Source: Myxococcota bacterium
GTDB lineage: Bacteria > Myxococcota_A > UBA9160 > PR03
DNA length: 55,515 nt
NCBI GenBank assembly: GCA_028284525.1
Contig: JANQRO010000445.1
Span: forward strand, 1-55,515
Direction: 5' to 3'
The notes beneath the pieces were generated by a model. The model did no database searches. It was not told where the DNA came from and saw only the letters and a list, made by a program, of their open reading frames with translations. How positions within the stretch are numbered: the stretch's first letter is position 1; each line of letters starts with the position of its first letter. The position numbers and the translations under genes were made by a program. Below, piece after piece: positions 5,789-55,515 of the stretch.

Positions 5789-8099
5789 CCAGGCGCGTCG
5801 CGACGAGCTCGTGGTGGCCTACGCGCGCTGGGTGATCCGCTGGCGTTGGCCGGTGTTGCTCGCGGTGGCGCTCGCCGCCGGCGCGGCGATCTCCGGCGGG
5901 CGATACACCCAGTTCATCGCGAGCTACAAGTACCACTTCGGGCCCGAGAACCCACAGCTCGCGGCCTTCATCGACCTCGAGAACACCTACACGCGAAACG
6001 ACAACCTGCTCTTCGTCGTGGCGCCCACCGAGGGCGACGTGTTCCAGCCCGAGGCCCTCGACGCGGTCCTCTGGCTGACCGAGCAGGGCTGGCAGCTTCC
6101 GTACTCGATCCGCGTCGACTCGATCTCCAATTTTCAACACACCTGGGCGGACGAGGACGATCTGATCGTCGAGGACCTCGTCGAGGACACCGAAGGCCTC
6201 GGGCCCGAGGAGCTGGACCGCATCCGCGACGTCGCCCTCGCCGAGCCACTGCTGCGTGGCAAGCTGGTCGCCCCGGACGCCAAGGCCACCGGCGTGAACG
6301 TCACGATCCAGCTCCCGGAGAGCGGTGGCGAGATCGAAGCCACCGCGGCGGCGTTGGCGATGGTCGCCGAGCTCCGCGAGCGGCACCCGGCGCTCCGCAT
6401 CGCCCTCACCGGGACCGTGGCGCTGTCGAACGCCTTCGAGACCAGTGCCCAGGGCGACATCGCCCGGCTGGTGCCCCTGATGGGCCTCGCGTTGGTGGTG
6501 GCGATGGTCGTCTTCCTGCACTCCCTGTCGGCGACCGTGGTGACGCTCCTCGTGACGGTCCTGGCGACCGCGACCGGGATGGGTCTCTCCGGTTGGCTCG
6601 GGATCCCGATCACGGCGATCTCCGCGAACGCGCCCACCATCATCCTGACGATCGCGATCGCGAACGGGGTCCACATCCTCGTCACCATGACCAAGGAGCA
6701 GGAGCGCGGTCTCGAACACAACGACGCCCTGGTCGAGAGCCTTCGTCTCAACTGGCAGCCGGTCTTTCTCTGTAGCCTCACCACGATCATCGGCTTCATG
6801 AGCCTCAATTCGAGCGACATTCCGTCGTTCCACGACCTGGGCAACATGACCGCGCTGGGGGTGGCCTCGGCCTGGGTCTACTCGGTCACCCTCCTCCCGG
6901 CGTTGACCTCGCTCCTCCCCCACCCGGTCAAGACGCGCCGCGCGCGCGGGGGGCCGAGCATGGAGCGCTTCGCCGAATGGCTCATCGTCCACCGCCGCGG
7001 TGTGCTGGCCTCGTGTGTCGCTGCGATCGTGGTGTCGGTCGCGCTGATCCCGCGTATCGAGATCAACGACATGTTCGTGCGCTATTTCGACCCGGCGATG
7101 GAGTTCCGCCAGGACACGGACTTCACCTCGGCGAACCTCACCGGGATCTACATGGTCCACTTCTCGGTCGGCGCGGGGGAAGACCAGGGCGTGAGCGAGC
7201 CCGGCTATCTCGAGCGGCTCCAGGGCTTCGCCACGTGGCTGCGGGAGCAGCCGGAGGTGAGCCACGTCAGCACCTTGTCCGACACGATGAAGCGGCTCAA
7301 CAAGAACCTCCACGGCGACGACGAGAGCTACTACCGGCTCCCCGAGAATCGGGAGCTCGCGGCGCAATACCTGCTCCTCTACGAGATGTCCCTGCCCTAC
7401 GGCCTCGACCTGAACAACCAGATCGACATCTCGAAGTCGTCGACCAAGGTGACCGCGACCCTCTACGAGATCTCGACCCGCGAGATGCTCGCGTTCACCG
7501 CGCGCGCCGAGGCGTGGCTGCGGGATCACACCCCGGAGGCGATGCACACCCACGGCTCGGGGCTCACCACGATGTTCTCCAACCTGGCGTACCGCAACGT
7601 AGTTAGCATGTTGGGGGGCACCGGGATGGCCTTTGGGCTGATCGCGCTGATCCTGATGCTCTCGCTCCAGAGCCTGCGTCTCGGCTTGCTGAGCCTGGTT
7701 CCGAACATCGTGCCGACGGTCTTCGCCTTTGGCGTGTGGGCGCTCCTCTCGGGCGTCGTCGGGATGTCGGTGGGCACGGTGGTGGCGTCGAGTCTCGGCA
7801 TCATCGTCGACGCCACCGTGCATTTCCTGAGCAAATACCTGCGCGCGCGACGCGAGCAGGACGCGTCCTCCGAGGACGCCGTGCGGTACGCGCTCTCCAC
7901 CGTCGGGAGCGCGCTCTGGATCACCTTTCTGATCCTGATCGCCGGGTTCACGGTCCTCTCGCTCTCGACCTTCAAGATGAACGCGGACTTTGGCCTGCTG
8001 GTGGCGATCACCATCGCGTGCGCGCTGGTCGCCGACTTCCTGTTGCTCCCGACCTTGCTGATGCGTCTCGACCGGCGAAGGAGCGCCTCCCGTGCATGA
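5781..8099 (+). CDS. RND-superfamily permease, MMPL/HAE3-like type (paralog 1)
   Basis: 772 aa. Two repeated halves, each with a soluble loop followed by a hydrophobic block (..APTIILTIAIANGVHIL.. / ..LGIIVDATVHFLSKY..). GTG start overlaps the tetR stop by 8 nt. Confidence 0.9.
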   Translation: MRSQARRDELVVAYARWVIRWRWPVLLAVALAAGAAISGGRYTQFIASYKYHFGPENPQLAAFIDLENTYTRNDNLLFVVAPTEGDVFQPEALDAVLWLTEQGWQLPYSIRVDSISNFQHTWADEDDLIVEDLVEDTEGLGPEELDRIRDVALAEPLLRGKLVAPDAKATGVNVTIQLPESGGEIEATAAALAMVAELRERHPALRIALTGTVALSNAFETSAQGDIARLVPLMGLALVVAMVVFLHSLSATVVTLLVTVLATATGMGLSGWLGIPITAISANAPTIILTIAIANGVHILVTMTKEQERGLEHNDALVESLRLNWQPVFLCSLTTIIGFMSLNSSDIPSFHDLGNMTALGVASAWVYSVTLLPALTSLLPHPVKTRRARGGPSMERFAEWLIVHRRGVLASCVAAIVVSVALIPRIEINDMFVRYFDPAMEFRQDTDFTSANLTGIYMVHFSVGAGEDQGVSEPGYLERLQGFATWLREQPEVSHVSTLSDTMKRLNKNLHGDDESYYRLPENRELAAQYLLLYEMSLPYGLDLNNQIDISKSSTKVTATLYEISTREMLAFTARAEAWLRDHTPEAMHTHGSGLTTMFSNLAYRNVVSMLGGTGMAFGLIALILMLSLQSLRLGLLSLVPNIVPTVFAFGVWALLSGVVGMSVGTVVASSLGIIVDATVHFLSKYLRARREQDASSEDAVRYALSTVGSALWITFLILIAGFTVLSLSTFKMNADFGLLVAITIACALVADFLLLPTLLMRLDRRRSASRA

Positions 8100-11000
8100 C
8101 TACGGCCGGCGCGACCGGCTCGTCGTGGCCTACGCGCAGGGCGTCGTGCGCTGGCGCTGGGCGGTCCTGGTGGCCTCGCTGGTGGTGGCGGGGCTCGCGA
8201 CCTCCGGGCTGCGGCACCTCCAGTTCATCGCCGACTACCGCTACTACTTCAGCCCCGAGAACCCGAATCTTCGGGCCTTCGACCGACTGCAGAACACCTA
8301 CACGAAGATGGACAACATCCTCTTCGTGGTCGCGCCGCGCGAGGGAGACGTCTTCGACGCCGGGGTCCTCGAGGAGATTCTCTGGCTGACGGAGCAATCG
8401 TGGCAGATCCCCCATTCGATCCGCGTCGACTCCCTCAGCAACTTTCAGCACAGCTGGGCCGAGGAAGACGACCTCACGGTCGAGGACCTCGTGGCGGGCG
8501 CGACCGCGCTCGATGCGGCGGAGCTCGAAAGGATCCGCGACGTGGCGCTCCACGAACCGCTTCTGGCGCGCAAGCTCGTCGCCGCCGACGGTCGCGCCAC
8601 CGCGGTCAACGTGACGATCCAGGTGCCGGAGGGCAGCGCGCTGGCGGGCGCCGAATCCGTCGCCCACGCCCGGGAGATCCTGGGTGCGCTCCGAGATCGG
8701 GGCGCCGCCGTCGACGTGGCGCTCACCGGCAACGTCCTGCTGAGCGACGCCTTTGGCGAGTCGATGGCCCGCGACATCCGCACCCTCGTCCCGTGGATGT
8801 ACGTCGCCCTGATCGCGGCGATGCTGCTCTTTCTGCGCTCCGTCTCGGGGACGATCGCCGTGCTCTCCGTCACGGCCCTCTCGGTCGTCACGGCGGTCGG
8901 GATGGCGGGCTGGCTGGGGATCCCGATCAGCCCGCCCGCGGCGACCTCGCCCACGATCATCCTGACCATCGCGATCGCCGACGGCATCCACATCCTCGTG
9001 ACCCTCACCCGGGACATGCGTCAGGGACAGAGCAAGACCGAGGCGTTGATCGACAGCCTGCGGATCAACTGGCAGCCGGTGTTCCTCACCAGTCTCACGA
9101 CCATCATCGGGTTCCTGTGTTTTCGCTTCAGCGTGATGATGGCCTACCGAGACCTCGGGATGATCACCGCGATGGGGGTGGCCGCGGCCTGGTTCTACTC
9201 GGTGACCTTTCTCCCCGCCTTCGTTTCGCTGGCGCCCTACCGGGTACGCCCGGCGCGGCGTCTCAGACGCTTGTCGATGGAGAACTTCGCCGAGTGGCTG
9301 GTGCGCCACCGCAGCCGAATCCTCCCCTCCACGGTGGTGGTGGCGCTGGCCGCGACGGCGCTGATTCCGCGTCTCGACCTCAACGACAGCTTCGTCGAGT
9401 ACTTCGACGAGAGCATCCAGTTCCGACGCGACACCGATTTCACGACCGAGAAACTCTCGGGGATCTACCAGGCCCACTACTCGCTCGACGCCGGCGCCGA
9501 AGCGGCGGTGAACGAACCGGACTACCTCCACGCCGTCGAGGCCTTCGAGACCTGGCTGCGCGGCCAACCCGAGGTGGACCACGTCAGCGCGCTCCCACAG
9601 ACGATGAAGCGGCTCAACAAGAACATGCACGGCGACGACGCCGCGTTCTATCGGCTTCCCGAGTCCCGCGAGCTCGCCGCCCAGTATCTCCTGCTCTACG
9701 AGATGTCGTTGCCCTACGGGCTCGATCTGAACAACCAGATCAACGTCAAGAAGTCGGCCACCAAGGTCACCGCGACGCTCAAGAACATCTCGTCGGCGGA
9801 GCTCCGGCGCTTCGACGCGCGGGCGCAGGCGTGGCTCGCGACGCACCCCGTCACCGAGCAGTCCCAGGGAGCGAGCCTCGCGCTCATGTTCGCCCACATC
9901 GGCCTGCTCAACGTGCAGGCGATGCTCTTTGGCACCGCGCTGGCCTTCGCCCTGATCTCGCTCCTCCTGATGCTCGAACTGCGCAGCCTGCGGCTCGGGC
10001 TGTTGAGTCTGATTCCGAATCTTGTCCCCACCCTCATGGCGTTTGGGGTGTGGTCGCTGCTGGTGGGCGAAGTGGGCGCGGCGCTCGGCGTGATCACCGC
10101 CGCCAGCCTGGGGATCATCGTCGACGCGACGGTCCACTTCTTGAGCAAGTACCTCCGCGCCCGCCGCGAACGCGACGCCTCGCCGGAAGACGCCGTCCGC
10201 TACGCCGTCTCGACGGTGGGCTCGGCGTTGTGGATCAGCTTTCTGATCCTCGTCGCCGGCTTCGCCGTCCTCTCCCAATCGACCTTCAAGGTCAACGCCG
10301 AGTTCGGTCTGTTGATCTCGATCACGATCGGCGCCGCGTTGCTCGCCGATTTCCTGCTGCTGCCGACCCTGCTCATGTGGGTCGACCGCCGCGCCACCGA
10401 AGATGGAGGAACCATGCACCGCAAATCCGCTGCCGCCCTGGCGGTCGCCGCCGCCCTGCTCGTCGCCGGCGTCCCGTCGGCCCACGCCGAGACCCCCGAG
10501 GAAAAGGGTCTCGCGATCGCGATGGAGGGCGACCGCCGCGACCACGGCTTCATCAACTCGACCAGCACCCTCAAGATGGTCCTGGCCAACAAGCAGGGCG
10601 AGACCAGCGAGCGCGAGCTTCGCAGCCGGGTGCTCGAGGTGCCCGAGATGGACGAGGGCGACAAGTCGCTGATCGTGTTCGACACCCCCCGCGACGTGAA
10701 GGGGACGGCCTTTCTCTCCTTCACCCACATCACCGAGCCCGACGACCAGTGGCTCTACCTGCCCTCGCTCAAGCGGGTGAAGCGCATCAGCTCGAAGAAC
10801 AAGTCCGGGCCCTTCATGGGGAGCGAGTTCGCCTACGAGGACATGAGCTCGCAGGAGGTCGCGAAGTACACGTACAAATGGCTGCGAGACGAGCCCTGTG
10901 GTGAATACACCTGCTTCGTCGTCGAGCGCTATCCCGTGTACGAGAACTCCGGATACACCCGGCAGATCGTCTGGGCCGACCAGGAGGAGTACCGGATCCT

Positions 11001-11217
11001 CAAGACCGAGTACTACGACCGCAAGGACGCCCTCTTGAAGACCCTCGTGTTGTCCGATTACCACCGGTACCTGGACAAACACTGGCGGGCCCACGATCTC
11101 TACATGGAAAACCACCAGACCGGCAAAACCACACGGCTGACCTGGAGCGAGTTCCAGTTCCAGATCGACATCGACGAGAACGACTTCGACAAGAACGCCT
11201 TGAAGCGGGCGCGTTGA
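8092..11217 (+). CDS. RND-superfamily permease (paralog 2) continuing in frame into a LolA-like outer-membrane lipoprotein-sorting domain
   Basis: 1041-aa uninterrupted ORF. Residues 1-774 are colinear and highly similar by eye to paralog 1. The C-terminal part carries ..DQWLYLPSLKRVKRISS..FMGSEFAYEDM.., typical of LolA-like sorting proteins. GTG start overlaps the paralog 1 stop by 8 nt. Confidence 0.8.
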   Translation: MHDYGRRDRLVVAYAQGVVRWRWAVLVASLVVAGLATSGLRHLQFIADYRYYFSPENPNLRAFDRLQNTYTKMDNILFVVAPREGDVFDAGVLEEILWLTEQSWQIPHSIRVDSLSNFQHSWAEEDDLTVEDLVAGATALDAAELERIRDVALHEPLLARKLVAADGRATAVNVTIQVPEGSALAGAESVAHAREILGALRDRGAAVDVALTGNVLLSDAFGESMARDIRTLVPWMYVALIAAMLLFLRSVSGTIAVLSVTALSVVTAVGMAGWLGIPISPPAATSPTIILTIAIADGIHILVTLTRDMRQGQSKTEALIDSLRINWQPVFLTSLTTIIGFLCFRFSVMMAYRDLGMITAMGVAAAWFYSVTFLPAFVSLAPYRVRPARRLRRLSMENFAEWLVRHRSRILPSTVVVALAATALIPRLDLNDSFVEYFDESIQFRRDTDFTTEKLSGIYQAHYSLDAGAEAAVNEPDYLHAVEAFETWLRGQPEVDHVSALPQTMKRLNKNMHGDDAAFYRLPESRELAAQYLLLYEMSLPYGLDLNNQINVKKSATKVTATLKNISSAELRRFDARAQAWLATHPVTEQSQGASLALMFAHIGLLNVQAMLFGTALAFALISLLLMLELRSLRLGLLSLIPNLVPTLMAFGVWSLLVGEVGAALGVITAASLGIIVDATVHFLSKYLRARRERDASPEDAVRYAVSTVGSALWISFLILVAGFAVLSQSTFKVNAEFGLLISITIGAALLADFLLLPTLLMWVDRRATEDGGTMHRKSAAALAVAAALLVAGVPSAHAETPEEKGLAIAMEGDRRDHGFINSTSTLKMVLANKQGETSERELRSRVLEVPEMDEGDKSLIVFDTPRDVKGTAFLSFTHITEPDDQWLYLPSLKRVKRISSKNKSGPFMGSEFAYEDMSSQEVAKYTYKWLRDEPCGEYTCFVVERYPVYENSGYTRQIVWADQEEYRILKTEYYDRKDALLKTLVLSDYHRYLDKHWRAHDLYMENHQTGKTTRLTWSEFQFQIDIDENDFDKNALKRAR
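10414..11217 (+). other. LolA-like domain with its own SD, ATG and signal peptide (possible internal translation start)
   Basis: GGAGGA at 10405-10410, then ATG 10414 in frame with the RND ORF. It encodes MHRKSAAALAVAAALLVAGVPSAHA/ETPEE, a classic type I signal peptide with an AHA cleavage motif. Confidence 0.6.
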
Positions 11218-28710: not shown

Positions 28711-28807
28711 GCCGCGGCGCGCGGATCCCCGCCGCTTCGGCGACGCGCCGCGGCGCGCGGATCCCCGCCGCTTCGGTGCTTCGGCGACCCGCCGCGGCGC
28801 GCGGATC
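28711..28807. repeat. Intergenic tandem direct repeat (about 2.7 copies of a ~36-bp unit)
   Basis: gccgcggcgcgcggatccccgccgcttcgg occurs identically at 28711-28740 and 28747-28776. A third partial copy, gccgcggcgcgcggatc, lies at 28791-28807. The repeat sits in the divergent region between the LLM gene and the MerB-like gene. Confidence 0.85.
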
Positions 28808-28858
28808 ACTCCAGTTCGAGCCCGATGCTACCGTCTTCGCGGACCCGGAGGGCCATCG

Positions 28859-29587
28859 ATGCCGCTTCCGACCCGCGAGTTCCCCCCCGGCTTCGCCGAG
28901 TGGCTCGAGCCGCTCTTCGAGAGCCGACGCCGTTTCGTCGCGGGCCTCGCGCCCGTGGAGCGCTGGGTCGCCGGGGCGACGGTCGAGGCCTTCGCGCTCG
29001 AAGGCTGCGGTCCGAGCCTCGCCGCCCTCCAGGCCGCGAGCCCGCACCCGCCCGAAGCGGTCGAGGCGGCGCTCCGTCACCTCGACGAGCGCGACATGCT
29101 GGTCCTCCAGGGCGACCGCGTGCTGGCCTTCTACCCCTTCTCCGATCGGCCCTGCCGTCACCGGGTGTGGGTCGAGGGCAAACGTCTCGACGCGATGTGA
29201 GCGGGGGGCGCGATCGCGATCCCCATCGTGTATGGGGACGGCACCCGGGCCCAGGTGGAGTCGGTGTGTGCGCAGTGCGACGCCGCGATCGGCTTTGGCT
29301 TCACCGTGACGGCGAACGGCGCCCGCAGCGACGACCCCGCGGCCCACGCGCTCCGCGAGTGGGACCCGATCCCCACCGCCGTCGACCGCGCCGAGCCCCA
29401 CATGCTCGACGGCATGTGAACGCGGGTGGAGTTCTTCTGTAGCGAAGAACACTTCGCCAAGTGGAAGGCGCAGCGCCCGGAAGAAGAGGGCTTCTCGATC
29501 GACTTCCACCAGAGCGCCCGGATCTGCTTCGAGTTCTACGGCGGTCTGCGCCGCGAGTTCGCCGACGCCGAGCCGCCCACGCCGTAG
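28859..29587 (+). CDS. Alkylmercury lyase (MerB)-like protein with two in-frame TGA codons (candidate double-selenocysteine protein; alternatively a pseudogene)
   Basis: ATG 28859 follows GGAGGG. One frame stays open to TAG 29585-29587 except for TGA at 29198-29200 and 29417-29419. Motifs KRLDAM-TGA-AGGAIAIP, ESVCAQC and DGM-TGA-TRVEFFCSEEHF line up with MerB RLYAW-C-ALDTLIFP, SSHCAAT and SF-C-CHVHFFAS. Confidence 0.6.
29220..29238 (+). promoter_or_regulatory. SECIS-like hairpin downstream of the first in-frame TGA
   Basis: tccccat-cgtgt-atgggga: 7-bp stem and a 5-nt loop containing GU. The loop begins 27 nt after the last base of the TGA. Confidence 0.4.
29431..29450 (+). promoter_or_regulatory. 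SECIS-like hairpin downstream of the second in-frame TGA
   Basis: gttcttc-tgtagc-gaagaac: perfect 7-bp stem and a 6-nt loop containing GU. The loop begins 19 nt after the last base of the TGA. Confidence 0.45.
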
Positions 29588-34139: not shown

Positions 34140-34667
34140 GTGAGCTGGCGCGGTGACAAGCTCGGCGGGATGAGCCCGCAGGAGATCGACGAGTTTCTGG
34201 CGGGTCCCTGGCTGGCACGGCTCGCCTGTCTCAAGCCCGACGGCTCCCCGTACGTCGTGCCGCTCTGGTACCACTGGGACGGCAGCGCCTTCTGGGTGGT
34301 GGGCCGCGCCCGTTCTGAATGGGCCCACTACCTCGCCCGGGACCCGCGTGTCTCCCTCGTCGTCGACGAACCCGAGCCGCCGATCCGCAAGGTCCTCTGC
34401 GAGGGTCGCGCCGTGATCGTCGAGGCCGAGGTGGGTCCGGTGCTCGAGAACGGCGCGAAGTCGCTCTGGAACCGCATCGGCGAGGAGCACACCGGGCCCC
34501 GCTACCTGGGCGAGCGCGCGGCCGAGTACCGCGGCGGGGTGAACGTCGAGCCTTGCTGGACCATCCAGATCGTCCCCGAGAAATTGACGACGTGGCAGGG
34601 ATTCGGTTGGCACAAACGCTACTTCCACCCCGAACTTCACGACGCTTCGAGCTCGGATTCGGAATGA
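34140..34667 (+). CDS. Pyridoxamine 5'-phosphate oxidase (PPOX)-family flavin/F420-binding protein
   Basis: GTG 34140 lies 8 nt after AGGAGG. ..LARLACLKPDGSPYVVPLWYHWDG..FWVV.. is a split-barrel signature. Confidence 0.8.
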   Translation: MSWRGDKLGGMSPQEIDEFLAGPWLARLACLKPDGSPYVVPLWYHWDGSAFWVVGRARSEWAHYLARDPRVSLVVDEPEPPIRKVLCEGRAVIVEAEVGPVLENGAKSLWNRIGEEHTGPRYLGERAAEYRGGVNVEPCWTIQIVPEKLTTWQGFGWHKRYFHPELHDASSSDSE

Positions 34668-34680
34668 GGGGGGCCCTCGG

Positions 34681-35550
34681 ATGGCCAAGGTGATCCTCGA
34701 GGTGCGCTGCAACGAGTACGCGATGCGCGACCGCAACCCCCACGTGCCTTGGAGCGCCGAGGAGATCGGCACCGACGCGGCGGAGTGCGAGGACGCCGGC
34801 GCGGCACTGATGCACTTCCACGCCCGGAATCCCGAGACCGGCGCCCCCTCCCACGAGGCCGGCGACTACGGCGCCGCGATCCGCGCCTGCCGCGAACGCT
34901 CTGCGCTGCTCGTGATGCCGACCCTCGGGGCTCACACGCTGCAGGACCCCCTCGAGCGGGTGGCCCACATCACCGCGCTGGGCCGCGACCCGGCGAGCCG
35001 CCCCGACCTCGCGCCGATCGACCTCGCGACGACCAACCTCGATCCCTACCGGAGCGGGCGTGGCTTTCTCTCGGAGGACACCGCCTATGTCAACACGATC
35101 GCGGGGCTCCGGGCGCAGATCGGCGAGATCCACCGCGCGGGCGTGGCAGTCCACGCGGTCCTCTGGAACGTGGGCTCCACCCGGGTGCTCGGGGCCTTCC
35201 AGGAGCTGGGGGAGCTCCCGCACCGGCTGCCCGTCGAGGTCGTGCTCTCCGACCAGATCCTCGCCTGTCACCCGGAGACCGAGCGGGGCCTCGACGCGAT
35301 CCTCGATTTCCTCCCCGACTCCGGTCTTCCGTGGCTCGCCCTCTGCGCGGGGAGCACCGGGCTCCCGCTCATCGAAGCCGTGGTCGAGCGCGGCGGACAC
35401 CTCTCCTTTGGGCTGGGCGACTGGCCCTACCCCGAGCTCGGCACTCCGCGCAACGCGGACGTCGTCGCCGAGGTGGTGCGCCGCATCCGCGCCGCCGGTG
35501 GGGAGCCGGCGAGCCCGGCGGAAGCGCGGGAGCTCTTGGGCCTGGCCTGA
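34681..35550 (+). CDS. 3-keto-5-aminohexanoate cleavage enzyme family (BKACE / DUF849)
   Basis: 289 aa. ..NPHVPWSAEEIGTDAAECEDAGAALMHFHAR.. is typical of BKACE. Confidence 0.85.
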   Translation: MAKVILEVRCNEYAMRDRNPHVPWSAEEIGTDAAECEDAGAALMHFHARNPETGAPSHEAGDYGAAIRACRERSALLVMPTLGAHTLQDPLERVAHITALGRDPASRPDLAPIDLATTNLDPYRSGRGFLSEDTAYVNTIAGLRAQIGEIHRAGVAVHAVLWNVGSTRVLGAFQELGELPHRLPVEVVLSDQILACHPETERGLDAILDFLPDSGLPWLALCAGSTGLPLIEAVVERGGHLSFGLGDWPYPELGTPRNADVVAEVVRRIRAAGGEPASPAEARELLGLA

Positions 35551-53756: not shown

Positions 53757-54652
53757 GCGCCGCTGCGAAGCGGCCGCGCAGTCTCGCCGAGATGGGACAG
53801 GTGCTCCGGGGCCTCGTCACCCCCGAGGCCAGCGCCCACGGCCGCGCCTTCGCCCTCGAGCCGGAGGACGTCGTCATCTCGCCCTTCTCGAAGTGCGGGA
53901 CGACCTGGCTCCAACAGATCGTCCACACCCTGCGCACGCGGGGCGATATGGACTTCGACGACATCTCCCGGGTGATCCCGTGGCTCGAGGTCTCCCTGGA
54001 TCTCGGTCTCGATCTCGGCGCGCCCCAGCGCGGACGTCCGCGGGCCTTCAAGAGCCATCTCTGCTGGCACCAGGTGCCCAAAGGCGGCCGCTACATCGTT
54101 TCCTTTCGCGACCCCCGAGACGCCCTGGTCTCGGCCTTCCGCTTTCTCGAGGGTTGGTTCTTCGAGGCGGGCTCGATCGGGATCGACGAGTGGGCCGAGG
54201 CGCGCTTCCTGGCCGATCGCCGGCACGGCTACTGGCACCACCTGGCCTCGTGGTGGGAGCGGCGCGACGACCCGGAGGTCCTGCTCCTCTGCTTCGAGGA
54301 TATGAAGGCCGACCTCCCGGGAGCCATCGAGCGGATCGCACACTTCCTGGGGCTGGCCCTCGACCCGGCCCTCCGCGAGACGGCGCTCCAGCACGCGTCC
54401 TTCGCCTTCATGAAGGCGCGGGGCGACCGCTTCGACGACCGCATGCTGCGGGAGCGCAGCGAGCGGGTCTGCGGGCTCCCGCCGGGCAGCGACTCGGCCA
54501 AGGTGCGACGCGGACGGGTGGGAGAGCACCGGCACGAGCTGCGCCCCGCGCTGCTCGAGGCCCTCGAGCAGGCGTGGAACGAGGAGATCGCCGCGCCCCT
54601 CGGCCTGGGGTCCTACGAGGTGTTGCGCGCGGCGCTCGCCGAACCCCGCTAG
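53753..54652 (+). CDS. PAPS-dependent sulfotransferase-domain protein
   Basis: GTG 53753 in a GTGA overlap with the cupin stop (alternative ATG 53791). 5'-PSB loop ..SPFSKCGTTWL.. and 3'-PB motif ..FRDPRDALVS... Confidence 0.8.
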   Translation: MSAAAKRPRSLAEMGQVLRGLVTPEASAHGRAFALEPEDVVISPFSKCGTTWLQQIVHTLRTRGDMDFDDISRVIPWLEVSLDLGLDLGAPQRGRPRAFKSHLCWHQVPKGGRYIVSFRDPRDALVSAFRFLEGWFFEAGSIGIDEWAEARFLADRRHGYWHHLASWWERRDDPEVLLLCFEDMKADLPGAIERIAHFLGLALDPALRETALQHASFAFMKARGDRFDDRMLRERSERVCGLPPGSDSAKVRRGRVGEHRHELRPALLEALEQAWNEEIAAPLGLGSYEVLRAALAEPR

Positions 54653-54791
54653 CGCACCGGCCGGCGGGGTGGCGCCCGTCTCCCGCCCGGGCACGACGGT
54701 CTCTCCCCCCGGTTCCAAGCCCTCGGCCGGCGGTTCTCTCCAGGTCGTCCCTGCCGTCCACGGCGTCGACGGGTTGGGCCATACTCCCGCC

Positions 54792-55515
54792 ATGGACGAC
54801 GAGCTCCTGCGCACGAACTGCCCCCGCGACTGCTACGACGGCTGCGGCATGCTCGTCCGGCGCCGCGCCGGGCACATCGTGAACGTCCGGGGCGACCCGG
54901 ATCACCCGATCAGCCGGGGGGCCCTCTGTGCCAAGTGCTCGGTGGCCTACAACGGGGTGTGGCACGACGAGAAGGCGCGTCTGCTGCGACCCCTGCGCCG
55001 CGACGGGCCCAAGGGCAGCGGTTCGTTTCGGCCCGTCTCCTGGGAGGAGGCCCTCGGCGAAGCCGCCGAGCGGCTCGGTGCCATCGCGGACCGCCATGGC
55101 CCCGCCTCGATCGTCCACACCCACTACTCGGGCACCCTCTCGGTGCTCGCCTACCTCTTCCCGATGCGCTTCTTCCACCGGCTCGGCGCCACCGAGGTCG
55201 ACCCGGACACGATCTGCAACATGGCCGGCCACGTCGCGTGGGGTCTGCTCTACGGCACCTCGGCGGTGGGCTTCGACCCGCGCACCGCGGCCGACTCGTC
55301 GGCGCTGCTGATCTGGGGCGCCAACCCCTCCCACTCCGCACCCCACATGCACGAGCACTGGCTCGACGAGTTCCCGGGGCGCGTGGTGGTGGTCGACCCG
55401 ATCCGCACCGAGACCGCGCGCAAGGCGGATCTCCATCTGCAGCCACGGCCCGGGAGCGACGCCGCCCTCGCCTTCGCCCTGCTCCACGCCCTCGACGCGC
55501 GGGGCGCCTTCGACG
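54792..55515 (+). CDS. Molybdopterin (bis-MGD) oxidoreductase family protein, N-terminal part (runs off the window)
   Basis: ATG 54792. N-terminal Cys cluster ..CPRDCYDGCGM...CAKC.. and ..LLIWGANP... Not in the ORF track because there is no stop in the window. Confidence 0.85.
   Translation, partial: MDDELLRTNCPRDCYDGCGMLVRRRAGHIVNVRGDPDHPISRGALCAKCSVAYNGVWHDEKARLLRPLRRDGPKGSGSFRPVSWEEALGEAAERLGAIADRHGPASIVHTHYSGTLSVLAYLFPMRFFHRLGATEVDPDTICNMAGHVAWGLLYGTSAVGFDPRTAADSSALLIWGANPSHSAPHMHEHWLDEFPGRVVVVDPIRTETARKADLHLQPRPGSDAALAFALLHALDARGAFD

What the first reader, a model, noticed from the sequence alone, without database searches (positions are those of the whole stretch)
28859..29587. MerB-like gene with TGA exactly at both catalytic-cysteine positions: candidate double-selenocysteine enzyme
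One reading frame runs from ATG 28859 (SD GGAGGG upstream) to TAG 29587. It is interrupted only by TGA at 29198-29200 and 29417-29419, and G/C third-position bias and family-like sequence continue through all three segments.

Against my recollection of plasmid-type MerB (catalytic Cys96, Asp99, Cys159), three motifs align:
- KRLDAM-[TGA]-AGGAIAIP with RRLYAW-C96-ALDTLIFP
- ESVCAQC with SSHC117AAT
- LDGM-[TGA]-TRVEFFCS with QSF-C159-CHVHFFAS

Both stops therefore replace the two thiols that bind and cleave the substrate. Each is followed by a 7-bp hairpin with a GU-containing loop (29220-29238 and 29431-29450). The spacing fits the roughly 15-40 nt generally described for bacterial SECIS (selenocysteine insertion sequence) elements.

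Two random nonsense mutations landing on exactly these two codons, each with a downstream hairpin, is unlikely. The Asp99 equivalent appears to be Gly, so the chemistry may differ from canonical organomercurial lyase. I do not recall MerB among the commonly listed bacterial selenoprotein families, and proteins with two Sec residues are rare in bacteria.
Basis: partly seen in the sequence, partly recalled or inferred. Interest (0 to 1): 0.85.

Follow-up and report, generated by a model that had tools for sequence, protein, structure and literature searches.

The report
MerB-like enzyme with two selenocysteines
This gene encodes a relative of the mercury-detoxifying enzyme MerB in which both metal-binding cysteines are written as TGA, and comparison with about a dozen relatives shows these are almost certainly conserved selenocysteine codons, defining a previously undescribed two-selenium branch of the family.

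Summary
The frame 28859-29587 is open except for TGA at 29198 and 29417. With U read as C the protein is a clear MerB-family member, and the two TGAs fall on MerB Cys96 and Cys159. The Asp99 position is Gly.

This is not a pseudogene or an altered genetic code.
- Thirteen distinct homologous DNA sequences (42-96% amino-acid identity among them, locus GC 46-70%) keep TGA at both sites and stay in frame to a normal stop. They come from Candidatus Binatia, a 'delta proteobacterium' MAG and other metagenomes.
- dN/dS is 0.06-0.34 in all three segments.
- TGA ends ordinary genes in the window and in the related loci.
- Each TGA is followed by a conserved hairpin with an invariant G-U in the loop. 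Both show synonymous-site freezing (Fisher p=4e-10), and hairpin 1 has two compensatory pair changes.
- In 65 distant full-length homologs the same columns are Cys (62 and 61) and Asp (63).

The only MerB-like selenoprotein I found described is SaoL. It has one Sec in a CU motif, keeps the Cys96- and Asp99-equivalent residues, and sits in a nine-gene locus of anaerobes. This clade fails the SaoL and MerB curated cut-offs and has no conserved operon.

Not tested: selA/selB/selD/tRNA-Sec in the genome (none in the window), selenium incorporation, and substrate.

The parts
28847..28852 (+). Shine-Dalgarno-like GGAGGG, 6 nt upstream of the ATG
   Evidence: Read directly. The same GGAGGG plus spacer is present in L004.
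28859..29587 (+). Coding sequence of a 242-residue MerB-fold protein (ATG to TAG) with two in-frame TGA codons
   Evidence: Purifying selection acts in all three segments. An AlphaFold2 model of homolog P0001 (pLDDT 94.3) matches MerB/MerB2 structures at TM 0.62-0.69.
29198..29200 (+). TGA-1, codon 114: predicted selenocysteine at the MerB Cys96 position
   Evidence: Aligned to Cys96 of 3f2g. TGA in 11/11 family sequences in the codon alignment and in all 20 loci read. The column is Cys in 62/65 distant homologs.
29207..29209 (+). Gly117, the MerB Asp99 (proton donor) position
   Evidence: alignment. Gly is invariant in the family. The column is Asp in 63/65 distant homologs.
29220..29238 (+). 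Hairpin 1 (putative SECIS-1): 7-bp stem TCCCCAT/ATGGGGA with loop CGUGU. Loop G and U lie at +31 and +32 from the U of UGA. A possible 2-bp lower stem is at 29217-29218 / 29240-29241.
   Evidence: The core 5 bp pair in 12/12 sequences. Two pairs show compensatory double changes (CG to UA, AU to GC). Loop G-U is invariant. Codons CCC ATC GTG and GGG are frozen, and TAT is a 10%-usage codon here.
29267..29278 (+). Cys137-x-x-Cys140, invariant CxxC; Cys137 aligns with MerB Cys117
   Evidence: With Cys194 and His198 it could form a structural metal site; this is inference only.
29399..29410 (+). His181 and Asp184 (motif P-H-x-L/I-D-G/R/H-x-U), family-specific invariants just upstream of Sec187 and candidate replacement proton donors
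   Evidence: Invariant in 11/11 family sequences. No such motif precedes the Cys159-equivalent in the distant Cys-type homologs shown. The functional role is inferred, not tested.
29417..29419 (+). TGA-2, codon 187: predicted selenocysteine at the MerB Cys159 position
   Evidence: Aligned to Cys159 of 3f2g. TGA in 11/11 family sequences in the codon alignment and in all 18 loci whose frame reaches it. The column is Cys in 61/65 distant homologs.
29431..29450 (+). Hairpin 2 (putative SECIS-2): 7-bp stem GUUCUUC/GAAGAAC with loop UGUAGC. The stem starts 11 nt after UGA, and loop G and U lie at +23 and +24.
   Evidence: 100% paired in 12/12 sequences. Codons TTC TTC TGT and GAA GAA are frozen across 46-70% GC, although GAA is a 16% and TGT a 34% codon in this window. 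Two Cys-type homologs with the same FFC[SN]EEH peptide do not keep these codons.

Best explanation
The gene encodes a genuine selenoprotein of the MerB (organomercurial lyase) fold.

Decoding. Both UGA codons (114 and 187) are decoded as selenocysteine. Each is served by its own hairpin inside the coding sequence, 19 and 11 nt downstream. These act as bacterial SECIS elements that recruit SelB carrying Sec-tRNA(Sec). The product is a 242-residue protein with an N-terminal winged-helix-like domain and a MerB core. The two residues that in MerB bind mercury (Cys96, Cys159) are both selenolates.

Shown here:
- MerB family membership and fold.
- Exact column correspondence of the two TGAs with the catalytic Cys positions.
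- Conservation of both TGAs and of the downstream reading frame across a whole clade.
- Conservation of the two hairpins.

Inferred:
- The two Sec residues form a bis-selenolate site for a soft metal or metalloid. The protein then cleaves a carbon-metal bond, with methylmercury or other organomercurials as the default candidates.
- Because selenols are already deprotonated at neutral pH, the MerB Asp99 base is dispensable and is Gly here.
- The proton for the leaving carbon would come from elsewhere. The family-specific invariants Asp184 and His181, next to Sec187, are the best candidates.

The selenoprotein part is near-certain. The lyase chemistry and the substrate are a working hypothesis at roughly one in three.
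For: Family and fold
- Pfam MerB E=8e-17.
- Alignments to 3f2g and 5c17 place the TGAs on Cys96 and Cys159.
- An AF2 model of homolog P0001 (pLDDT 94.3) hits only MerB/MerB2 in the PDB, with E 1.7e-11 to 3e-7 and TM 0.62-0.69 to the crystal structures.

Conservation of the TGAs
- All full-length homologous loci keep TGA at both positions and a single frame to a normal stop. These are L001-L005 and L008-L019, with pairwise identity of 42-96% and locus GC of 46-70%.
- Protein databases hold only fragments cut exactly at the two sites. About 31 N-terminal clusters of 98-122 aa were found, the ones inspected ending in ..AM or ..GM. Middle pieces of 63 aa end in ..LDGF/M/L. C-terminal pieces are 51-54 aa.
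- Two gene-caller products show W at both sites, which is a table-4 translation of TGA.

Translation continues past both TGAs
- dN/dS is 0.06-0.34 in the N-terminal, middle and C-terminal segments alike for the divergent pairs.

Standard genetic code
- TGA ends about half of the window's coding-like ORFs.
- TGA also ends neighbouring genes in six homolog loci.

Cys/Sec pair test
- In 65 distant full-length homologs the columns are C 62/65, C 61/65 and D 63/65.

SECIS evidence
- In the six-sequence alignment, 9 of 9 invariant-residue codons inside the hairpins are codon-identical, against 2 of 66 elsewhere (p=4e-10).
- Hairpin 1 has two compensatory pair changes and one C-G to U.G change.
- Hairpin 2 is 100% paired.
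- The loop G-U is invariant in both.
- RNAalifold predicts the same hairpins independently.
- The codon choices have probabilities of 0.0065 and 0.0068 under the window's own usage.

Precedent
- SaoL is a MerB-like selenoprotein with Sec at the Cys159 position.
Against: - No selA, selB, selD or tRNA-Sec lies in the 55 kb window. The rest of the genome could not be searched.
- No literature on Sec use in Binatia was found.
- The hairpins are not statistically unusual on this sequence alone.
- Hairpin 2 shows no covariation, only invariance. It also overlaps a conserved peptide (FFCxEEH).
- For the functional part, Asp99 is essential for MerB protonolysis (established knowledge, from memory) and is missing here.
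- No mer genes or any other metal-related genes are conserved next to the gene. Neighbourhoods differ between clades.
- Very tight Hg-Se binding could make product release slow. That would favour a binding or sequestering role over turnover.
Confidence: 0.85

Rival explanations
1. The protein is a true double-Sec protein but not a lyase. The bis-selenolate site acts as a very high-affinity binder, chaperone or sink for Hg(II) or other soft metals and metalloids, or as a selenium-handling protein, with no carbon-metal bond cleavage.
For: - The Asp99 position is Gly in 11/11 family sequences.
- No merA, merR or merT partner is present to accept a released metal.
- From memory: the D99S MerB mutant and the natural MerB2 show altered metal binding (PDB entries 5c0t and 5c17 appear).
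- UxxU 'metal-binding' selenoproteins are listed in the 2026 review.
Against: - The whole MerB core, including the substrate-pocket architecture, is retained at high model confidence.
- Family-specific invariant His181 and Asp184 sit next to Sec187 and could replace Asp99.
- Maintaining two Sec codons is costly and in known cases usually accompanies catalysis.
Confidence: 0.3
2. The protein is a true double-Sec protein acting as a redox enzyme. The two Sec residues cycle between a diselenide and two selenols, with no metal involved.
For: - Most prokaryotic selenoproteins are redox proteins, and UxxU or diselenide-type motifs exist.
- A GSH-dependent disulfide oxidoreductase-like GST lies two genes away in the Binatia clade.
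Against: - The fold is MerB, not thioredoxin-like.
- The GST association is confined to one clade.
- No redox partner is conserved.
- The Sec residues sit at the positions that bind Hg in MerB crystal structures.
Confidence: 0.1
3. The gene is a pseudogene. Two nonsense mutations inactivated a MerB-like gene and the downstream frame is decaying.
For: - Gene callers split it into fragments.
- The Candidatus Entotheonella serta copy carries a 1-nt frameshift.
Against: - TGA sits at both sites in every homolog across 42-96% identity.
- dN/dS is 0.06-0.34 downstream of both stops for the divergent pairs.
- No other stops or frameshifts occur in 18 of 20 loci read.
- The stops sit exactly on the two catalytic Cys columns.
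Confidence: 0.01
4. The organism uses an altered genetic code or generic read-through. UGA would be read as Trp, Gly or Cys in these organisms rather than as selenocysteine.
For: Database translations P0001 and P0136 show Trp at both sites.
Against: - TGA terminates 24 of 43 coding-like ORFs in the window. It also terminates neighbours in L001, L003, L006, L008, L014 and L019.
- The only other in-frame TGAs flanked by coding-like sequence in the window are junctions between adjacent or overlapping ORFs.
- The Trp residues come from short contigs where a table-4 model gives a longer ORF.
- A dedicated conserved hairpin with a G-U loop follows each site, as Sec decoding requires.
Confidence: 0.04

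Closest known systems
SaoL, the MerB-like organometallic lyase selenoprotein (NCBIfam NF040728; Haft & Gwadz 2022, bioRxiv 10.1101/2022.07.06.499078)
   Same: Both are MerB-fold proteins recognised by PF03243. Both have selenocysteine at the MerB Cys159 position and are truncated in databases at the UGA. Both are inferred to act on organometallic compounds.
   Different: - SaoL has one Sec in a CU dipeptide. It keeps the residues aligned to MerB Cys96 and Asp99 (Cys99 and Asp102 in C. difficile SaoL).
- SaoL occurs only in anaerobes, inside the nine-gene SAO locus.
- The window protein has two Sec, M/F-U instead of C-U, and Gly at the Asp position.
- It has no conserved operon.
- It scores 34.7 bits against SaoL's 140-bit cut-off, and only over residues 64-144.
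MerB and MerB2 organomercurial lyases (EC 4.99.1.2; PDB 3f0o, 3f2g, 5c17)
   Same: They share the same two-domain fold over about 190 aligned columns (TM 0.62-0.69). The metal-ligand positions and the Cys117 position correspond.
   Different: - Both ligand Cys are Sec, and Asp99 is Gly.
- An extra CxxC and an FFCxxxH motif are present.
- Identity is only 15-19%.
- The protein scores below the NCBIfam MerB cut-offs: 42.6 against 193, and 39.7 against 200.
- There is no mer operon.
Cys-type MerB-like proteins from metagenomes (P0005-P0097; for example P0013, next to a MerR gene)
   Same: These are the nearest full-length relatives, at up to 33% identity. They share the YPFS, CxxC and FFCS..H motifs.
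   Different: They carry the canonical C..D...C triad (62, 63 and 61 of 65). They do not keep the hairpin-forming codons even when the peptide is the same.
Escherichia coli fdhF-type bacterial SECIS element
   Same: Both are hairpins inside the coding sequence just downstream of UGA. The apical loop carries G-U. In hairpin 2 the stem starts 11 nt after UGA, with loop G and U at +23 and +24, which matches G23/U24 of fdhF (numbering from memory; geometry).
   Different: - There are two separate elements within 220 nt of one mRNA.
- Hairpin 1 sits 8 nt further from its UGA.
- No bulged U was identified.
- SelB binding is untested, and Rfam holds no matching family.
Predicted two-Sec metal-binding selenoproteins (for example NF041115 'putative mercuric reductase', UxxU; listed in PMC13188914)
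   Same: Two selenocysteines are presumed to chelate one soft metal.
   Different: In those proteins the two Sec are three residues apart in one motif on a different fold. Here they are 73 residues apart, each has its own SECIS, and the MerB fold is presumed to bring them together by analogy with Cys96 and Cys159.

Membership tests
MerB family (Pfam PF03243) | Score above the Pfam gathering threshold | tested here: met
   61.8 bits against a cut-off of 27, E=8e-17, profile positions 1-123 of 126 (TGA read as Cys).
MerB family (Pfam PF03243) | MerB three-dimensional fold over the whole protein | tested here: met
   Tested on homolog P0001 (47% identical), not on the window protein itself. The AF2 model has pLDDT 94.3. 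The only significant PDB matches are MerB and MerB2, at TM 0.62-0.69 to the crystal structures over 183-195 columns.
Organomercurial lyase MerB proper (NCBIfam NF033555 / NF009710, EC 4.99.1.2) | Score above the curated equivalog cut-off | tested here: not met
   39.7 bits against 200, and 42.6 bits against 193.
Organomercurial lyase MerB proper (NCBIfam NF033555 / NF009710, EC 4.99.1.2) | Catalytic thiols Cys96 and Cys159 | tested here: not met
   Both columns are occupied by TGA (predicted Sec), not Cys. The positions are conserved, but the chemistry is selenol rather than thiol.
Organomercurial lyase MerB proper (NCBIfam NF033555 / NF009710, EC 4.99.1.2) | Asp99 proton donor | tested here: not met
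   Gly117 in the window and in 11/11 family members. The column is Asp in 63/65 distant homologs.
Organomercurial lyase MerB proper (NCBIfam NF033555 / NF009710, EC 4.99.1.2) | mer operon context (merR, merA, merT/P) | tested here: not met
   None in the 55 kb window or in the flanks of the related loci.
Organomercurial lyase MerB proper (NCBIfam NF033555 / NF009710, EC 4.99.1.2) | Hg-C bond protonolysis activity | not testable with these tools
   Needs purified selenoprotein and enzyme assays.
SaoL (NCBIfam NF040728) | Score above the curated cut-off | tested here: not met
   34.7 bits against 140, with only residues 64-144 aligned.
SaoL (NCBIfam NF040728) | CU dipeptide at the Cys159 position, with the Cys96- and Asp99-equivalent residues retained | tested here: not met
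   The window has M-U (F-U, Y-U or T-U in relatives). It has U at the Cys96 position and G at the Asp99 position.
SaoL (NCBIfam NF040728) | Location in the nine-gene SAO locus (ABC transporter, SaoE, SaoC and others) | tested here: not met
   The window neighbours are an F420-dependent LLM oxidoreductase, an MFS transporter and a MOSC protein. Other clades have different neighbours.
Bacterial SelB/SECIS-dependent selenoprotein | In-frame UGA conserved among orthologs and aligned with Cys in homologs | tested here: met
   TGA at both sites in all intact homologs. Cys in 62/65 and 61/65 distant homologs.
Bacterial SelB/SECIS-dependent selenoprotein | Coding constraint continues downstream of the UGA | tested here: met
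   dN/dS is 0.06-0.34 in the middle and C-terminal segments for the divergent pairs, no higher than in the N-terminal segment.
Bacterial SelB/SECIS-dependent selenoprotein | Conserved hairpin 16-37 nt downstream of UGA with G in the first two loop positions (bSECISearch-type criteria, recalled from memory) | tested here: met
   The distances are 26 and 18 nt, the loops CGUGU and UGUAGC, and the stems 7 bp. Both are conserved, with synonymous freezing and compensatory changes. bSECISearch itself was not available.
Bacterial SelB/SECIS-dependent selenoprotein | selA, selB, selD and tRNA-Sec present in the same genome | not testable with these tools
   None in the window or in the loci scanned for tRNAs. 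The only literature support found is for Entotheonella, reported to have a full Sec gene set (PMC11703216).
Bacterial SelB/SECIS-dependent selenoprotein | Selenium actually incorporated at the UGA positions | not testable with these tools
   Needs 75Se labelling or mass spectrometry.

The most novel reading that the evidence does not exclude
This would be the founding member of an undescribed selenoenzyme clade. It is found in Binatia, in marine 'Myxococcota' (including Tara Oceans contigs) and, as a frameshifted copy, in a sponge symbiont. In it the MerB active site has been rebuilt around two selenolates, and the proton donor has moved from the Cys96 side (Asp99 to Gly) to the Cys159 side (Asp184/His181). 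The clade would give organisms without a mer operon a mer-independent, selenium-dependent route for demethylating methylmercury or cleaving other organometal(loid)s.
Probability: 0.3. Interest if true: 0.8.

Novelty: new variant of a known kind. Interest (0 to 1): 0.66.

Why it matters
- Selenoproteome. If confirmed, this adds a distinct subfamily to the roughly 119 catalogued prokaryotic selenoprotein (sub)families. It would be one of the few with two Sec residues, each with its own SECIS in a 730-nt gene.
- Active-site chemistry. I am not aware of another predicted enzyme in which both ligating cysteines are replaced by Sec while the general acid is deleted. That makes it a natural experiment on how selenium changes carbon-metal bond chemistry.
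- Mercury cycling. Selenium-mercury antagonism and methylmercury demethylation outside the mer operon are open questions. The clade occurs in ocean, sponge-associated and MAG data sets that include the Microflora Danica survey.
- Annotation. Every database copy is currently split into two or three 'hypothetical' fragments or mistranslated with Trp. The clade is therefore invisible to merB surveys.

Tried and rejected
- A first word-indexed protein search with the U-to-C protein found only one homolog, P0001. It had Trp at both sites, which briefly suggested a real Trp family or genetic code 4. Its DNA could not be fetched. The idea was rejected after five loci showed TGA and TGA proved to be a normal stop.
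- Single-sequence folding energies of the regions downstream of each UGA were not significant. A rule-based scan showed a 9.3% background rate. I therefore did not rely on the window alone.
- A gathering-threshold Rfam scan of the window gave nothing. ARAGORN found no tRNA-Sec in the window or in five loci.
- A Pfam scan of 41 of the 44 coding-like ORFs in the window, with ten of the neighbours nearest the gene read by eye or by NCBIfam, found no Sec-machinery or mer genes. One MMPL-like ORF (8062-11217) was left out by mistake.
- The search for a conserved operon failed. Synteny holds only within close clades. NCBIfam naming of neighbours gave only generic functions.
- Literature searches for Sec use in Binatia/Binatota found nothing relevant.
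The single-sequence model of P0001 was useless, at pLDDT 35. Only the alignment-based model was used. No coordinates are returned, so the Sec-Sec distance and the position of Asp184/His181 could not be measured.
- I ran no further search on SelA/SelB/SelD. Without a Binatia-like query, the word-based candidate filter would return mostly relatives of the query organism.
Full report
**1. The observation**

ATG at 28859 lies six bases after GGAGGG. The frame runs to TAG at 29585-29587 and is broken only by TGA at 29198-29200 (codon 114) and 29417-29419 (codon 187). Third-position GC stays at 0.89-0.96 through all three segments.

With both TGAs read as Cys, the 242-residue product matches Pfam MerB (PF03243) at E=8e-17, 61.8 bits against a gathering score of 27. 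HMMER alignments to crystallised MerB (3f2g) and MerB2 (5c17) place codon 114 on Cys96 and codon 187 on Cys159. Cys137 falls on Cys117, and Gly117 falls on the proton donor Asp99.

The two 7-bp hairpins are present at 29220-29238 and 29431-29450. On this sequence alone they are not remarkable. MFE z-scores are -0.19 and -1.88. In addition, 9.3% of all TGA triplets in this 70%-GC window are followed by a hairpin meeting the same rules. The case therefore rests on comparison with homologs.

**2. Not a pseudogene and not a different genetic code**

- TGA terminates 24 of the 43 complete coding-like ORFs in the window, and TAG terminates the other 19.
- TGA also ends neighbouring genes in six loci that carry a homolog.
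- The only other in-frame TGAs with coding-like sequence on both sides are junctions between adjacent or overlapping ORFs.

A word-indexed search found a single full-length relative, P0001, with Trp at both positions. Scans of genome and metagenome collections, plus look-ups of encoding contigs, then produced 19 loci.

| Loci | Source |
|---|---|
| L001, L002 | Candidatus Binatia MAGs |
| L003 | a 'delta proteobacterium' MAG |
| L004, L005 | metagenome contigs, syntenic with the window |
| L006, L007 | Candidatus Entotheonella serta assemblies |
| L008-L013 | contigs of up to 4.09 Mb |
| L014-L018 | low-GC clade; its protein cluster includes MCH2410828.1 'Myxococcota bacterium' and Tara Oceans contigs |
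| L019 | metagenome contig, syntenic with the window |

In the window and in 17 of these loci both positions are TGA, the frame is otherwise open, and it ends at a normal stop. Pairwise identities among the 11 distinct sequences analysed run from 42% to 96%, and locus GC runs from 46% to 70%. The Trp residues in P0001 and P0136 are best explained as table-4 translations chosen by gene callers on short contigs.

An exhaustive HMMER search and a profile search of the protein collections returned only fragments for the close family. About 31 N-terminal clusters were found, the ones inspected ending in ..AM or ..GM. The 63-residue middle pieces end in ..LDGF/M/L, and the C-terminal pieces are 51-54 residues.

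Nei-Gojobori dN/dS is 0.06-0.34 in the N-terminal, middle and C-terminal segments alike for the divergent pairs. Translation therefore continues through both TGAs under purifying selection.

**3. Cys/Sec pair test**

I aligned 65 distant full-length MerB-like proteins (up to 33% identity) to the family.

| Column | Distant homologs | This family (11/11) |
|---|---|---|
| Sec-1 (Cys96 position) | Cys in 62/65 | U |
| Sec-2 (Cys159 position) | Cys in 61/65 | U |
| Asp99 position | Asp in 63/65 | G |

No member of the close family with Cys at either site was found. One 818-bp contig product, P0142, has Ser at site 1.

**4. The hairpins as SECIS elements**

*Synonymous-site test.* In a codon alignment of six sequences, 77 columns have an invariant, degenerate residue. 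Leaving out the two TGA columns, 11 of the remaining 75 are also codon-identical, and 9 of those 11 lie inside the two hairpins. That is 9 of 9 hairpin columns against 2 of 66 elsewhere (Fisher p=4e-10).

*Codon choice.* The frozen codons include ones that are rare in this window. TAT is 10% of Tyr codons, GAA 16% of Glu, TGT 34% of Cys and GGG 30% of Gly. The joint probability of the codon choices is 0.0065 for hairpin 1 and 0.0068 for hairpin 2.

*Pairing across 12 distinct sequences.*
- In hairpin 1 the five core pairs are always formed. Two pairs change on both sides (C-G to U-A in L019 and L003; A-U to G-C in the L016 lineage). One pair changes from C-G to U.G.
- Hairpin 2 is paired in 100% of cells. 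It is invariant except for one U-A to U.G change.
- The loop dinucleotide G-U is invariant in both.
- RNAalifold predicts the same two hairpins without guidance.

*Geometry.* The stem of hairpin 2 starts 11 nt after UGA, and its loop G and U are at +23 and +24. As I recall, this is the arrangement of the E. coli fdhF SECIS. Hairpin 1 lies 8 nt further out but is still inside the 16-37 nt range used by bacterial SECIS predictors (from memory).

*Control.* Two Cys-type homologs encode the same FFC[SN]EEH peptide with different codons: TGC ... GAA GAG, and TGT ... GAG GAG. The freezing is therefore not a simple consequence of the peptide. This control has only two sequences.

**5. Fold and active site**

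An AlphaFold2 model of P0001, built with a 93-sequence alignment, has pLDDT 94.3. Its only significant PDB matches are MerB2 and MerB, with E from 1.7e-11 to 3e-7 and TM 0.62-0.69 to the crystal structures over 183-195 columns. The protein is thus a full-length MerB homolog, with a winged-helix-like N-terminal domain followed by the catalytic core.

Family-invariant residues include:
- U114 and G117.
- C137-x-x-C140.
- E167-W168-D169-P170.
- P180-H181 and D184.
- U187.
- F192-F193-C194, E196-E197-H198, and C223.

No Asp or His is seen three or six residues before the Cys159-equivalent in the distant Cys-type homologs shown. This makes D184 and H181 candidates to replace the missing Asp99. That is an inference, because the tools return no coordinates.

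**6. Context**

The window contains no Sec-machinery and no mer genes. The immediate neighbours are a divergent F420-dependent LLM oxidoreductase, a convergent MFS transporter and a MOSC protein. This arrangement is shared only with L004, L005 and L019.

Other clades have different neighbourhoods:
- The Binatia clade L008-L013 has a YfcG-like GST, then a divergent class I SAM methyltransferase, then the MerB-like gene, then a proline-iminopeptidase-family hydrolase, then EthD.
- The low-GC clade has a divergent enoyl-CoA hydratase and an intradiol dioxygenase.
- L001 and L003 differ again.

The gene behaves as a stand-alone unit.

**7. Most likely mechanism**

*Shown or strongly supported.* There are two UGA codons, each with its own in-frame SECIS-like hairpin, consistent with SelB-dependent decoding as Sec. 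The product is a MerB-fold protein whose two metal ligands are selenolates.

*Inferred.* The bis-selenolate site binds a soft metal or metalloid centre, and the enzyme cleaves a carbon-metal bond.
- In MerB, Asp99 deprotonates the thiols and then protonates the leaving carbon (established mechanism, from memory).
- Selenols are ionised at neutral pH, so the base function is unnecessary.
- The proton could come from Asp184, His181 or solvent admitted by the Gly-Gly segment.

I put the selenoprotein claim at about 0.9 and the lyase function at about one in three. The main functional rival is a high-affinity metal binder or sink, and a diselenide redox role is a lesser rival.

**8. Comparison with what is known**

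The only MerB-like selenoprotein I found in the literature and in NCBIfam (June 2026) is SaoL. The 2026 inventory of 119 families, PMC13188914, lists it as 'CU, 1 Sec'. SaoL keeps the Cys96- and Asp99-equivalent residues, occurs in anaerobes and marks a nine-gene locus.

The present clade fails the SaoL cut-off (34.7 against 140 bits) and the MerB cut-offs (42.6 against 193, 39.7 against 200). It lacks the CU motif, the Asp and the locus. It is therefore a member of the MerB superfamily, but not of MerB proper or of SaoL.

I rate it a new variant of a known kind. I cannot exclude that it appears among unpublished or non-indexed candidate lists, such as large MAG surveys cited.

**9. Limits**

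The only supporting literature is for Entotheonella (PMC11703216), and the copy there carries a 1-nt deletion.
- No read-level data, protein-level data or coordinates were available.
- Hairpin 2 has no covariation.
- The codon control uses two sequences.

Noticed in passing
window 28711-28820: Three copies of a 30-nt direct repeat (GCCGCGGCGCGCGGATCCCCGCCGCTTCGG) lie in the divergent intergenic region between the F420-dependent LLM gene and the MerB-like gene. Two copies are identical and one is 73% identical, with spacings of 36 and 44 nt. The repeat is absent from the 88%-identical locus L004. Tandem Repeats Finder did not report it.
   Followed up: partly
L006 5349-5400 and L007 1615-1666 (Candidatus Entotheonella serta): This copy has a 1-nt deletion in the C-run of the 5' arm of hairpin 1 (ATCCCCATC to ATCCCATC). 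The rest of the gene, including TGA-2 and FFCSEEH, is intact in the shifted frame. The gene region is identical in two assemblies. It is either a recent pseudogene or a homopolymer sequencing error.
   Followed up: partly
P0001 (JGI 3300067032, 987-bp contig) and P0136 (997-bp contig): Public protein collections hold full-length versions of family members with Trp at both Sec positions. This is apparently because gene callers chose a table-4 model on short contigs. Such entries could mislead homology-based annotation.
   Followed up: partly
P0142 (818-bp ENA contig; member of the P0120 cluster): This variant has Ser at the first Sec position (GMSAAG) and Cys for the nearby Trp, and it ends at TGA-2. 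It is either a natural Sec-to-Ser variant or a low-quality contig.
   Followed up: no
window, whole: None of the 43 complete coding-like ORFs ends in TAA; 24 end in TGA and 19 in TAG. The window is dense in LLM/F420 oxidoreductases, amidohydrolases, a Rieske oxygenase, two adjacent MMPL-type transporter ORFs (the second judged by eye from its sequence, not scanned) and other catabolic genes. It has no housekeeping markers apart from a SUI1-like gene.
   Followed up: no
L008-L013 (for example L008 3154-7311): One Binatia clade has a conserved neighbourhood: a YfcG-like GSH-dependent oxidoreductase, a divergent class I SAM methyltransferase (with weak ArsM-like hits), the MerB-like gene, a proline-iminopeptidase-family hydrolase and EthD. 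Pairing a methyltransferase with a putative demethylating lyase is suggestive, but the arrangement is confined to this clade.
   Followed up: partly
L020 367-1715 and L021 674-1537: Cys-type MerB-like relatives carry CxxC plus FFCxxxH, a possible structural metal site that canonical MerB lacks. One sits next to a MerR-family regulator. Another has a C-terminal Fer2_BFD-like extension.
   Followed up: no
window 54414-55514: A molybdopterin oxidoreductase gene (Fe4S4 and Molybdopterin domains) runs off the end of the window. Whether it is a formate-dehydrogenase-type selenoprotein could not be judged from the fragment.
   Followed up: no
window 35548 and 39372: Two other in-frame TGAs have coding-like sequence on both sides. 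Both are junctions between separate adjacent genes that happen to share a frame. One separates the 34588-35550 ORF from a signal-peptide-like protein. The other separates an amidase from DUF899. They are not read-through candidates.
   Followed up: yes
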